Origin: the human T2T-CHM13v2.0 reference genome, Homo sapiens
Reading direction: 5' to 3' (one strand)
NCBI RefSeq assembly: GCF_009914755.1
Contig: NC_060927.1
DNA: 64,000 bases
Position numbers and translations under genes: made by a program. The number at the start of each line of letters is the position of its first letter. Position 1 is the stretch's first letter. The notes below the pieces were generated by a model. The model made no database searches, was not told the origin of the DNA, and worked only from the letters and a program-made list of their open reading frames with translations. Positions 609 through 2,334 of this stretch are shown here, piece by piece.

Positions 609-1164
609 AACTCCCCTTTTGTAGAGAGAAATGTATAAAGGAAATTTTCGTTAGTAAAGATATCTATACCAGGAAGAAAGCTGCTTTGAGCCAGCTTTTA
701 TTACCTGAGACACTCTTATCTGCATAACAAGGTAACCTTTATTTCCACCATACATTTCCTCCCCTCACCCTCCTACGATCTGTCTCTACTGTTCCCTAGA
801 AGCCCCAAACCCTTATGCCTTTCTGTAGTTCAGATTAAGTGTCAATCATCTGGCCTATCTTTTTTTTTTTTTTAAGAGAGAGATGGGGTCTTGCTATGTT
901 GCCCAGGTTGGTCTCAAACTCCTGGGCTTAAGCAATCCTCCTGCCTCAGCCTCCCAAGTAGCTGGAATTACAGGCATGAGCCACTGTAATTATAGAAGGG
1001 CCCACATTGGCCCTTCTTTGAGTCTTATGTTTTCATGGGGCTCCTGTGTGTGCATATGTACATAATTAAAATGGTTTCCTCCTGTTAACCTGTCTTATGC
1101 CAATTTAATTTGTAGACTAGTTCACTGAGGAGGGTAGACGGAAGCTATTTTCATTTCCCCTACA
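609..1164 (+). mobile_element. MER34/MER4-group ERV1 LTR remnant interrupted by an Alu monomer
   Basis: Ends with TTTCCCCTACA and carries the CCTGTTAACCTGTCTTATG..AATTT block typical of MER34-like LTRs. Confidence 0.5.
860..986 (-). mobile_element. Alu monomer (FLAM-like)
   Basis: Poly-T followed by reverse Alu left-arm sequence (GTTGCCCAGGTTGGTCTCAAACTCCTGGGC...GCATGAGCCAC). Confidence 0.9.
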
Positions 1165-1294
1165 CTTTCAACAGGAGCAGGGGTTGTGATGACTAGAGTG
1201 TGGGCTCCGGGGTCAGATGGTATTATGGGCTAAACTATGTCCCCCTAAAAAGATATGTTGAAGTCCTAATTCCCATTACGTCAGAATGTGACCT

Positions 1295-1954
1295 TGTGGC
1301 AGGCCAGGTCTCACTAATGCAGGCCTCCAGTACAACTGTCCCAGCACTGACTGAGTAGCTAGGTTAAACAGTAAAAGCTGATTGAGCCAGTGCTCTTATA
1401 AAGAGTCTGAAATATAGCAAAGAGCCCAGCAAGAGTTTTGCCTAGGCTTTTCCTGGGCCTTGAAGCATGACAATATAACAAAGGAATTCTTAACAGGACC
1501 TTTTTAGGATTAAACACGTTTTGTTGGGGGTCTGAAATAACTCCCCAGGCCTCCACAAACAAGTTTATTGGCATCTAAAGGAACTCCCCAAATCTTTATG
1601 ATTTAGCAGGAGACAAGATTAGGGTAATCACCCCAGCACCTAGACCCATTTAGACTAAGTAAACTTACTGAGGCTTCAGAGGAAGGTCTTCAGGACTCAG
1701 ACCTTAGTTATAGATTATAAGAAGTTAATCACTTACGTCTTTGAATAAATACACACTTACACATAGATGTACAGCTTAGAAGGTATATAAGCTCTGGAAA
1801 ACTTTATAATTTTGAGTTGGTCTGGCGATAATTTCCAGGCCTTCTCCCTGTAACCAGTTATGGAAATAAAGACTCTCTTCCTTCCCAGTTCATCTGCATC
1901 TCGTTATTGGGCCACGAGAAATAGCAGCCCAACCCTCAGTTTGGTCCAGAAACA
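1295..1954 (+). mobile_element. Complete ERV1 LTR, LTR15 (HERV-I/HERV15)-like
   Basis: TG...CA termini (TGTGGCAGGCCAGGTCTCAC ... GGTCCAGAAACA), TATATAA at 1784-1790, AATAAA at 1865-1870; family name is from memory. Confidence 0.7.
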
Positions 1955-2177
1955 CATCTTCAGCAAGAACCACAAGCAATTCCGCATAATCAGCTGGAAG
2001 CTGGATGAGCTGCACTGCCAGTTCCCGGTTCTGCTGCCAGGCAGCCTGCACTTGCTGCCGCTGCTCACACTCCACTGCAACATCACGGAATCCTATCCAT
2101 CTTCTTCACTGATGTGGTTTGTGGACTCTGATGACCCAAATCTGACATTAGTTCTGGAATGTACTAAGAACAAGTTG
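1955..2177 (+). pseudogene. UBE2Q2: Processed (intronless) fragment of ubiquitin-conjugating enzyme E2 Q2, N-terminal RWD domain
   Basis: The translation [68 protein letters not shown] aligns with the recalled human UBE2Q2 sequence [69 protein letters not shown]; no intron within it. Confidence 0.9.
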
Positions 2178-2211
2178 ACACCAAGAACCTGGACACCCTC
2201 CACTGGTGAGA
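2178..2211 (+). mobile_element. Terminal ~34 bp of a second class I LTR (MER51-group-like U5 end)
   Basis: ACACCAAGAACCTGGACACCCTCCACTGGTGAGA resembles the recalled terminus ...GCCAAGAACCTGGACACCCTCCACCGGTAACA; followed directly by the TSD ACCT. Confidence 0.55.
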
Positions 2212-2334
2212 ACCTTATTTGGAAATAGGGGCTTTGTAGATTTAACTTCCTTCCACAGGTGTTGAGTGCGATAACACCCTCAGTTACGATGAGGTCATTA
2301 GGGTGGGCCCTGATTCAATATGACTAGTGTCCTT

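What the first reader, a model, noticed from the sequence alone, without database searches (positions are those of the whole stretch)
1291..2215. Host mRNA captured between two different LTR ends and integrated as one unit (LTR15-like + UBE2Q2 cDNA + MER51-like end, single ACCT TSD)
Seen in the sequence: the host MLT1 breaks at GTGACCT (1294) and resumes as ACCTTATTTGGAAATAGGG (2212), so 1295-2211 is one insert with a 4-bp duplication ACCT. It starts at the exact TG of a full LTR. After the LTR's terminal CA it runs straight into UBE2Q2 coding sequence with no primer-binding site. It ends in 34 bp that resemble the terminus of an unrelated LTR. There is no poly(A) tail and no long TSD. Established knowledge: L1-made processed pseudogenes have poly(A) tails, ~7-20 bp TSDs and usually keep the 3' end of the mRNA, whereas 4-bp TSDs and TG...CA ends mark class I retroviral integrase. 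This copy holds only 5' coding sequence. Inference: an ERV particle co-packaged a cellular RNA, reverse transcriptase switched templates among three RNAs, and integrase inserted the chimera. That would be a fossil of retroviral gene transduction in the germ line.
Basis: partly seen in the sequence, partly recalled or inferred. Interest (0 to 1): 0.9.

Follow-up and report, generated by a model that had tools for sequence, protein, structure and literature searches.

The report
Host UBE2Q2 cDNA captured between retroviral LTR ends
A 917-base insert on human chromosome 3 joins a complete retroviral LTR, a spliced piece of the UBE2Q2 gene and the last 36 bases of a different LTR, and was pasted in as one unit by a retroviral integrase; it is a rare but already known kind of fossil.

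Summary
Window 1295-2211 is one insert in an old host repeat, flanked by a 4-bp duplication (ACCT).

- **Target site:** 9 of 9 uninterrupted sister copies of the host repeat carry ACCT once at this spot.
- **1295-1954:** a complete LTR ('LTR-A'), with exact TG...CA ends shared by sister copies.
- **1955-~2173:** UBE2Q2 exon 1 (from codon 15) joined exactly to exon 2. The 10.5-kb intron is absent, so this is spliced cDNA. It is 89% identical to the parent gene.
- **2176-2211:** the terminal 36 bases of an unrelated LTR family ('LTR-B'), ending at that family's last base. The terminal CA now reads GA.
- **Ruled out:** there is no poly(A) tail, no long duplication and no primer-binding site. Both junctions are unique in the genome.
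- **Integrase type:** both LTR families make 4-bp duplications. Proviral copies of both carry the same type of primer-binding site.

So a retroviral (ERV1-type) integrase inserted a chimeric reverse transcript. The 5' junction sits on the exact last base of the LTR with no microhomology. That fits a read-through transcript from a provirus integrated in UBE2Q2 exon 1 better than a random template switch. The unit may be a solo composite LTR.

The kind is known (LTR-mediated retroposition; 3 human loci listed in 2016, not this one). The family names LTR15 and MER51 could not be tested. Moderate interest.

The parts
1215..1294 (+). Left half of the host repeat (reader: MLT1; name untested), ending in the left ACCT copy (1291-1294)
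   Evidence: 40 of 40 scored matches (347 candidates); 9 of 9 sister copies align to this flank and continue without an insert.
1291..1294 (.). Target-site duplication, left copy (ACCT)
1295..1954 (+). Complete LTR of family 'LTR-A' (U3-R-U5). TG start and CA end, TATA-like box 1784-1791, AATAAA 1865-1870. No primer-binding site follows.
   Evidence: 34 of 39 non-self matches span 1 to 660-663; ends and 4-bp duplications of 7 sisters; median identity to 30 sisters is 85.4%, the same as sister-to-sister; 3 of 29 sisters are followed by a shared internal sequence that starts with a primer-binding site, which the window lacks.
1955..2087 (+). UBE2Q2 exon 1, from the third base of codon 15 to the exon's last base
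   Evidence: chr15:73714479-73714615, 85% identity, CpG-rich.
2088..2173 (+). UBE2Q2 exon 2, with a 9-bp deletion after 2162. It ends 7 bases before the exon's 3' end, or possibly exactly at it.
   Evidence: chr15:73725153 onward, 92% identity, exact exon 1|exon 2 junction.
2174..2175 (+). 2-3 bases of ambiguous origin at the cDNA/LTR-B junction (GT)
   Evidence: comparison by eye. They may be untemplated bases, the end of exon 2 after a 3-base slippage deletion, or LTR-B after a 3-base deletion.
2176..2211 (+). Last 36 bases of U5 of a different LTR family ('LTR-B'), ending at that family's terminal base. The terminal CA is mutated to GA.
   Evidence: 11 of 11 copies; 18 of 20 copies; 34 of 36 identical to an LTR-B end, no alignment to LTR-A's own end. 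E 1.3e-7.
2212..2215 (.). Target-site duplication, right copy (ACCT)
2212..2334 (+). Right half of the host repeat
   Evidence: right-flank matches in 7 of 9 sister copies. In four of them (L033, L034, L037, L038) the match overlaps the end of the left-flank match by 4 bp; in the other three it lies further downstream.

Best explanation
This is a fossil of host-mRNA capture by an endogenous retrovirus. A chimeric reverse transcript was inserted into an old host repeat in one step by an ERV1-type integrase, which made the 4-bp ACCT duplication. The transcript consisted of complete LTR-A, then spliced UBE2Q2 cDNA (codon 15 of exon 1 to the end region of exon 2), then the last 36 bases of U5 of LTR-B. 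I hold this general claim at about 0.8-0.85.

Most likely path (inferred, about 0.45):
1. A provirus of family A had integrated, in sense, into UBE2Q2 exon 1.
2. A transcript read through its 3' LTR into the gene, and intron 1 was spliced out.
3. This RNA was packaged together with an RNA of family B.
4. Minus-strand DNA was primed by tRNA on the B RNA and copied only about 36 bases of U5.
5. It then jumped into UBE2Q2 exon 2 of the read-through RNA and ran on through exon 1, U5, R, U3 and the polypurine tract of A.
6. Plus-strand priming at that tract set the left end at the TG of LTR-A.

A and B carry the same type of primer-binding site. The second strand transfer could therefore proceed normally. 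That would give a provirus whose two LTRs were both the composite U3A-R-U5A-cDNA-U5B end. Later LTR-LTR recombination would leave the present solo composite LTR.

Today it is a decayed, non-functional pseudogene (UBE2Q2P9).
For: Shown:
- Single insert with a 4-bp duplication. 9 of 9 sister host repeats have ACCT once.
- The left end is the exact first base of LTR-A. The right end is the exact last base of LTR-B (11 of 11 copies; 18 of 20).
- Both families make 4-bp duplications. LTR-A: 3 of 7 perfect, 3 of 7 with 3 of 4 matching, 1 of 7 none. LTR-B: 2 of 5 perfect, 2 of 5 with 3 of 4, 1 of 5 with 5 bp.
- The host part is spliced. It has the exact exon 1|exon 2 junction while the parent exons lie 10.5 kb apart.
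- There is no poly(A) and no long duplication.
- Both junction 30-mers are unique in the genome at up to 3 mismatches. No other locus joins exon 1 to exon 2 (25 of 25 candidates scored).
- The parts have consistent ages. LTR-A versus 30 sisters has median identity 85.4%, equal to sister-to-sister. The cDNA is 195 of 219 identical to the parent, and 12 of the 24 mismatches are CpG-type.

For the path:
- The LTR-A/cDNA junction is on the last base of the LTR with no shared bases.
- Proviral LTR-A copies continue AA(A/G)TTTGGCAAGCCAGCCAGGAG (3 of 29). One LTR-B copy continues TATTTTGGCGAGCCAGCGGGGAG (1 of 20). The two 18-base primer-binding sites match at 15 of 18 positions.
- Tan et al. 2016 (PMC5131818, passages read) describe the general mechanism and cite read-through '3' transduction'.
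Against: - The path is inferred from anatomy alone. No orthologous primate locus could be examined.
- No provirus or second copy with the composite LTR exists in this genome.
- Today's UBE2Q2 locus (70 kb) holds no LTR-A or LTR-B. A provirus in exon 1 would not be expected to persist, so this is silent rather than contrary.
- The shared primer-binding site for LTR-B rests on a single proviral copy.
- The integrase-critical CA at the right end now reads GA, which has to be put down to later mutation.
- The microsimilarity typical of copy-choice junctions is absent at the 5' junction and unclear (0-3 bases) at the 3' junction.
- Family class rests on duplication length and LTR anatomy. No pol gene was examined.
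Confidence: 0.8

Rival explanations
1. Three RNAs (ERV A, UBE2Q2 mRNA, ERV B) were packaged in one particle. Both junctions arose by copy-choice template switches of reverse transcriptase. The short chimera itself, not a provirus, was integrated.
For: The anatomy is the same as above. Tan et al. 2016 describe such switches and list retrocopies flanked by two different LTR elements (Supplemental Table 8: mouse MERVL+MT and RLTR12B+ORR1D2; zebrafish examples). The 2-3 orphan bases at 2174-2175 resemble the 'de novo' bases they report at 3 of 29 junctions.
Against: A switch landing by chance on the exact last base of a 660-base LTR, with 0 bases of microsimilarity, is unlikely. Tan et al. found microsimilarity at 25 of 29 junctions. 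A short product also needs a blunt left end at U3, which standard reverse transcription makes only after the second strand transfer.
Confidence: 0.25
2. DNA-end joining before integration. A run-off plus-strand strong-stop DNA, or an unintegrated one-LTR DNA, ending at the U5 terminus of LTR-A was joined to a UBE2Q2 minus-strand cDNA primed from the LTR-B primer site. The joining was by end-to-end template jumping or by cellular end joining. Integrase then used the two free LTR ends.
For: It explains the exact LTR-A terminus at the junction and the lack of a primer-binding site and of microhomology. It also explains the exact LTR-B terminus at the right end.
Against: No direct evidence. It needs the packaged mRNA or cDNA to end at codon 15. 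Unprocessed viral DNA ends normally carry two extra bases beyond CA (recalled knowledge), and none are seen at 1954/1955.
Confidence: 0.12
3. Separate events. An LTR-A solo LTR inserted first with the ACCT duplication. Later a UBE2Q2 cDNA plus an LTR-B fragment was inserted or left by deletion exactly between the LTR end and the right ACCT. Alternatively, an LTR-B element came first and was mostly replaced.
For: None positive. It cannot be excluded without orthologous loci.
Against: It needs a second event landing exactly at the LTR/duplication boundary and ending exactly on the last base of an LTR-B. LTR-A's own right flank (CATC) does not repeat ACCT. The ages of the parts agree.
Confidence: 0.04
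4. An L1-made processed pseudogene, or capture of stray cDNA during double-strand-break repair, that only by chance abuts LTR sequence.
For: L1 makes nearly all human retrocopies (Tan et al. 2016). A 5'-truncated UBE2Q2 retrocopy with exons 2 onward joined exists on chr8. Its mechanism was not examined.
Against: There is no poly(A), no 7-20 bp duplication, and the 3' end of the mRNA is missing. Both ends of the insert are exact LTR termini, and the duplication length matches both LTR families.
Confidence: 0.02

Closest known systems
LTR-mediated retroposition in animals (Tan et al. 2016, Genome Res, PMC5131818). Its human cases are two FAM8A1 retrocopies in HERVK14 and one retrocopy of ENSG00000176788 in MER4 (Supplemental Table 8, read).
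   Same: A partial, intronless host cDNA flanked on both sides by LTR-element sequence, with no L1 hallmarks and the host mRNA only partly copied. One of the human cases involves an ERV1-group element (MER4).
   Different: This locus is not in their list (0 occurrences of UBE2Q2). Here a complete LTR abuts the cDNA at its exact last base with no microsimilarity. The two ends come from two LTR families. No internal viral sequence is left. The integrase-type 4-bp duplication is intact.
Classical read-through transduction of cellular genes by retroviruses (Swain and Coffin 1992, known here only as cited by Tan et al.; details recalled).
   Same: A provirus upstream of or inside a gene, a read-through chimeric RNA, removal of introns by splicing, and a non-homologous switch during reverse transcription that restores a 3' viral end.
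   Different: Those cases are somatic, replicating, oncogene-carrying viruses. This is a single germ-line copy carrying 219 aligned bases (window 1955-2173) of a ubiquitin-conjugating enzyme gene, and the restored end comes from another ERV family.
Transduction of FAM8A1 by HERV-K (Jamain et al. 2001, known here only as cited by Tan et al.).
   Same: A human endogenous retrovirus carrying a captured host gene, now an untranscribed processed pseudogene.
   Different: That case is class II (HERV-K), sits inside a provirus, has microsimilarity at the fusion points and has 2 copies. Here the anatomy is class-I-type, the copy is single and the unit is LTR-only.
L1-made processed pseudogenes
   Same: An intronless copy of a host mRNA, decayed.
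   Different: No poly(A), no long duplication, the 3' end of the mRNA is missing, and LTR termini sit at both ends.

Membership tests
LTR-mediated retrocopy / retroviral transduction product | Host part is intronless (derived from spliced RNA) | tested here: met
   Exact exon 1|exon 2 junction at 2087/2088. The parent exons are 10.5 kb apart on chr15.
LTR-mediated retrocopy / retroviral transduction product | LTR-element sequence on both sides, in the same orientation as needed for integrase ends | tested here: met
   LTR-A 1295-1954. LTR-B U5 end 2176-2211.
LTR-mediated retrocopy / retroviral transduction product | Target-site duplication of the length made by that element's integrase, around the whole unit | tested here: met
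   ACCT on both sides and present once in 9 of 9 sister host repeats. 4-bp duplications in sisters of both families.
LTR-mediated retrocopy / retroviral transduction product | No L1 hallmarks (poly(A) tail, 7-20 bp duplication) | tested here: met
   Read directly.
LTR-mediated retrocopy / retroviral transduction product | Microsimilarity at the switch points (copy-choice signature) | tested here: not met
   5' junction: 0 shared bases. 3' junction: 0-3 bases, ambiguous. This lowers the copy-choice path, not the capture itself.
LTR-mediated retrocopy / retroviral transduction product | Whole unit absent together from the orthologous site of outgroup species | not testable with these tools
   Only this one genome could be searched.
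ERV1 (class I, gammaretrovirus-like) LTR, for LTR-A and LTR-B | TG...CA termini, promoter and poly(A) signals inside, 4-bp duplication | tested here: met
   That 4 bp marks class I is established knowledge (recalled).
ERV1 (class I, gammaretrovirus-like) LTR, for LTR-A and LTR-B | Proviral copies with a primer-binding site next to the LTR, and a class I pol | tested here: inconclusive
   Primer-binding site seen in 3 of 29 LTR-A copies and 1 of 20 LTR-B copies. The 1.4 kb of internal sequence held showed only short open stretches, the longest 94 codons, with no long gag- or pol-like frame; they were not run against any protein-family library. No pol was examined.
No repeat library was on hand.
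L1-made processed pseudogene | Poly(A) tail, long duplication, 3' end of mRNA kept | tested here: not met
   The cDNA covers only codons 15 to about 92-94.

The most novel reading that the evidence does not exclude
The 917-bp unit is a solo composite LTR. A provirus once sat here whose two LTRs each carried UBE2Q2 exons 1-2 between U5 of one ERV family and the U5 tip of another. It was made from a read-through, spliced RNA of a provirus integrated in UBE2Q2 exon 1. If so, this is a step-by-step germ-line fossil of the classical read-through transduction path, with heterologous ERV co-packaging, in a primate ancestor. A still bolder variant: the cDNA ends exactly at the exon 2 donor and was spliced into a cryptic acceptor (...TTGTTCAAG|ACACC) in U5 of LTR-B. 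Then the whole template would have been one RNA.
Probability: 0.3. Interest if true: 0.65.

Novelty: new member of a known kind. Interest (0 to 1): 0.5.

Why it matters
Capture of host mRNA by retroviruses is how acute transforming viruses picked up oncogenes. Germ-line fossils of it in humans are very rare: the 2016 survey lists 3 loci from 2 genes.

This locus adds a clean case with every hallmark still readable. Both LTR termini are exact, the 4-bp duplication is intact, the splice junction is exact, and the ends come from two ERV families that share a primer-binding site type. The junction on the exact LTR terminus gives a handle on which path (read-through or copy choice) operated.

It also shows that the RefSeq pseudogene UBE2Q2P9 was not made by L1. 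It has no sign of present function.

Tried and rejected
1. Sister copies. A BLAST-type search with 1945-2225 and 30-mer pattern searches over each junction at up to 3 mismatches found only the window itself.

2. A resident LTR-A or LTR-B in today's UBE2Q2 locus (chr15:73710001-73780000). None was found at E <= 1e-3.

3. The tail as a diverged end of LTR-A itself. Rejected: global alignment score -7 against +32 for LTR-B. LTR-A versus 10 LTR-B copies gives only chance hits, best E 0.32.

4. The uninterrupted host-repeat site inside the 64-kb window. 0 matches, so sister copies were taken from the genome instead.

5. Classing LTR-A by its internal region. The 1.4 kb after 3 proviral copies showed only short open stretches, the longest 94 codons; two such stretches in L058 read like Alu sequence, which was not checked. 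No family search was made.

6. More LTR-B flanks. I then took 20 stretches of 100 bases, which gave one proviral copy.

8. Literature. 'UBE2Q2P9' appears in 0 papers. 'UBE2Q2' + 'endogenous retrovirus' + 'pseudogene' appears in 0 papers. One of the three supplementary files of Tan et al. could not be searched.

9. The open frame 1854-2228 (124 codons) is treated as chance. The differences from the parent, read by eye, are largely amino-acid-changing, and there are 3- and 9-base deletions.
Full report
**What is there**

The window is human T2T chr3:72044001-72108000. Its genome could be searched. Reading 900-2700 shows a host repeat that breaks after ...GAATGTGACCT (1294) and resumes at ACCTTATTTGGAAATAGGG (2212).

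I searched the genome with the 90 bases left of the break (40 of 40 scored matches, 347 candidates) and fetched nine sister copies. In 9 of 9 of them GTGACC(T/C) is followed at once by (T/C)ATTTGG/(T/C)ATTTGA-type sequence, so ACCT occurs once. In four of them (L033, L034, L037, L038) the right flank of the window aligns so that it overlaps the end of the left-flank match by 4 bp. Hence 1295-2211 (917 bp) is one insert flanked by a true 4-bp target-site duplication.

**Part 1: the LTR (1295-1954)**

A genome search with the whole insert gave 40 of 40 scored matches (676 candidates) at 85-90% identity.

Seven of seven sisters inspected start TGTGGCA(G/A)G and end ...AACA, and they lie between short duplications. 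The 4-bp duplication is perfect in 3 of 7, matches at 3 of 4 positions in 3 of 7, and is absent in 1 of 7.

The window copy has a TATA-like box (1784-1791) and AATAAA (1865-1870), so it is a plus-oriented U3-R-U5. Its median identity to 30 full-length sisters is 85.4%, the same as sister-to-sister (85.4%, 434 pairs). It is an ordinary member of its family, which I call LTR-A.

In 3 of 29 further copies (L058-L060) the LTR is followed by a shared internal sequence of about 770 bases that begins AA(A/G)TTTGGCAAGCCAGCCAGGAG. This is a primer-binding site two to five bases after the LTR. The other 26 have unrelated flanks. The window has no such site. After ...GAAACA comes CATCTTCAGC.

**Part 2: the host cDNA (1955-~2173)**

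A search with 1945-2225 (25 of 25 candidates scored) matched two places.
- Window 1955-2088 matched chr15:73714479-73714615 (85%).
- Window 2087-2162 matched chr15:73725153-73725228 (92%), together with paralogous exon copies on chr15 and chrY and one on chr8.

The chr15 sequences show that the first place is UBE2Q2 exon 1 (ATG upstream...ATCACG|gtgag). The second is exon 2 (...acag|GAATCC... to ...AACAACAATTTG|gtaaga). The window reads ATCACGGAATCC, the exact splice junction, with the 10.5-kb intron gone.

The copy starts at the third base of codon 15, so it lacks the 5' UTR and the start codon. After a 9-bp deletion it continues to ACTAAGAACAA (2173). RefSeq ends UBE2Q2P9 at 2156.

Identity to the parent is 195 of 219 (89%), with gaps of 3 and 9 bases. 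Of the 24 mismatches, 12 are CpG-type transitions. The 2-base gap printed at the exon junction in that call was my slicing error. By eye, the differences are largely amino-acid-changing, so the copy decays neutrally. Non-CpG divergence is about 5.5%.

**Part 3: the tail (2176-2211)**

Window 2176-2209 matched many places at 97-100% (best E 1.3e-7). I fetched eleven. In 11 of 11 the match is the very end of an LTR. Upstream lie a TATTTAAA-type box and CAATAAA, the LTR ends ...CCAC(T/C)GGT(G/A)ACA, and unrelated flank follows. Another 18 of 20 copies show the same end within 2 mismatches.

One group of these LTRs is about 360-385 bp and starts TGAGGCAGG. Their duplications are 4 bp perfect in 2 of 5, match at 3 of 4 positions in 2 of 5, and are 5 bp in 1 of 5.

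The window's insert therefore ends on the last base of this family (LTR-B). It matches at 34 of 36 bases, and one of the two differences turns the terminal CA into GA.

LTR-B is not similar to LTR-A. The best blastn E between them is 0.32, and the tail does not align to LTR-A's own end. However, the first nine bases of the two families match at eight positions (TGTGGCAGG and TGAGGCAGG). One LTR-B copy (L083, 1 of 20) is also followed by TATTTTGGCGAGCCAGCGGGGAG. Its 18-base primer-binding site matches that of LTR-A proviruses at 15 of 18 positions. From memory this is the tRNA-Arg type; I did not test that.

**The junctions**

5' junction: LTR-A is complete to its last base and UBE2Q2 starts with the next base. 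The parent reads ...GCGTC|CATCTTC and the LTR reads ...AACA, so no base is shared.

3' junction: UBE2Q2 is certain to 2173 and LTR-B is certain from 2176. The two or three bases between (GT, or GTT) can be read in three ways.
- As untemplated bases.
- As LTR-B after a 3-base deletion.
- As the last bases of exon 2 after loss of one CAA unit and one substitution.

In the third reading the cDNA ends exactly at the exon 2 donor. LTR-B would then start right after an AG preceded by a pyrimidine-rich stretch (...TTCTTTGTTCAAG|ACACC), which looks like a cryptic splice acceptor. The extra match is only 3 of 4 bases, so this is a lead and not a result.

**What it is**

The insert has an exact LTR start, an exact LTR end and a 4-bp duplication of the length both families make. 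It has no poly(A) and no long duplication, and it holds a spliced, 3'-truncated host cDNA. This is the anatomy of an integrase-made insertion of a chimeric reverse transcript.

Both junction 30-mers are unique in the genome at up to 3 mismatches. It is therefore a single event that did not spread, at least not in the lineage leading to this genome.

The similar decay of the LTR (about 7% per lineage from the pairwise figure) and of the cDNA fits one old event. With neutral rates recalled as 1-2 x 10^-9 per site per year, that is some tens of millions of years. This date is a rough inference.

**How it most likely arose**

The general claim (one integrase event, chimeric cDNA) I put at about 0.8-0.85.

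For the path, the telling point is that the LTR/cDNA junction lies on the exact terminal base of a complete LTR, with no primer-binding site and no microsimilarity. Copy-choice switches land anywhere and usually show microsimilarity. Tan et al. 2016 found it at 25 of 29 junctions in Drosophila (passages). An exact LTR terminus next to host sequence is what a proviral integration site looks like.

1. An LTR-A provirus integrated in sense in UBE2Q2 exon 1.
2. Transcription read through its 3' LTR into the gene.
3. Intron 1 was spliced out, and the RNA was packaged with an LTR-B-family RNA.
4. Minus-strand DNA primed at the LTR-B primer site copied about 36 bases, then switched into exon 2 of the chimeric RNA.
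5. It ran through exon 1 and the whole LTR-A to the polypurine tract, where plus-strand priming fixed the left end.

Because both families carry the same type of primer-binding site, the second strand transfer could follow the normal route. That would put the composite unit at both ends of a provirus. LTR-LTR recombination would then leave what we see.

This also solves a problem of the 'short chimera' idea. Standard reverse transcription makes the blunt U3 end only after that second transfer.

None of the paths is shown. All are inferred from anatomy.

**Against my reading, and open points**

- No primate orthologue could be examined, so the all-at-once origin rests on the duplication and the exact ends.
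- No composite-LTR provirus or sister copy exists in this genome.
- Today's UBE2Q2 locus holds no LTR-A or LTR-B.
- The shared primer site of LTR-B rests on one copy.
- The right-end CA is now GA.
- No pol was examined, and the names LTR15 and MER51 are untested.

**Comparison with what is known**

The kind is in print. Tan et al. 2016 (PMC5131818) describe LTR-mediated retroposition across animals. I read passages, section 6 and part 6 of Supplemental Tables. After filtering 518 LTR-flanked human retrocopies they list three human loci. Two are FAM8A1 copies in HERVK14 and one is a copy of ENSG00000176788 in MER4. UBE2Q2 does not occur in the supplementary text held (one file could not be searched). 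A 2017 review (PMC5408686, passages) adds no human case.

'UBE2Q2P9' occurs in 0 papers of the library. 'UBE2Q2' with 'endogenous retrovirus' and 'pseudogene' occurs in 0 papers.

So the locus seems undescribed as an ERV-made retrocopy, but it is a new member of a known kind. Its particular features are the complete LTR abutting the cDNA at its terminus, ends from two ERV families, no internal viral sequence, and an intact 4-bp duplication. Flanks from two different LTR elements are already listed for mouse and zebrafish in that table.

**Verdict**

The novelty claim is overstated. Interest 0.5.

Noticed in passing
window 1854-2228 (+): The UBE2Q2 reading frame is open from inside the LTR (an ATG at 1860 overlaps the AATAAA signal) through the cDNA and tail into the host repeat: 124 codons stop to stop. 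It is probably chance in a decayed copy.
   Followed up: partly
window 2163-2180; LTR-B copies L021-L031 near their last 40 bases: The cDNA may end exactly at the exon 2 splice donor. LTR-B copies read ...TTCTTTGTTCAAG|ACACC at the matching point, which looks like a cryptic splice acceptor 34 bases before the LTR end. That would mean splicing into the LTR rather than a template switch.
   Followed up: partly
window 2212-2222 versus L083 just after its LTR: The target DNA right of the insert (ACCT then TATTTGG) resembles the spacer and start of the primer-binding site after the one proviral LTR-B copy (TATTTTGG). It is seven bases and likely coincidence.
   Followed up: no
L018 (chr8:87780626-87783700, minus strand): A second UBE2Q2 retrocopy begins in exon 2 and carries the following exons joined (12 further exon matches to the chr15 locus). 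It is 5'-truncated, as L1-made copies usually are. Its ends were not examined.
   Followed up: partly
L058-L060 (after LTR-A) and L083 (after LTR-B): Proviral copies of the two otherwise dissimilar LTR families carry the same type of primer-binding site (15 of 18 bases) and similar first nine LTR bases. This suggests related ERV lineages.
   Followed up: partly
window 900-990: Alu-like sequence lies just upstream of the host repeat (read, named from recall). It is unrelated to the finding.
   Followed up: no
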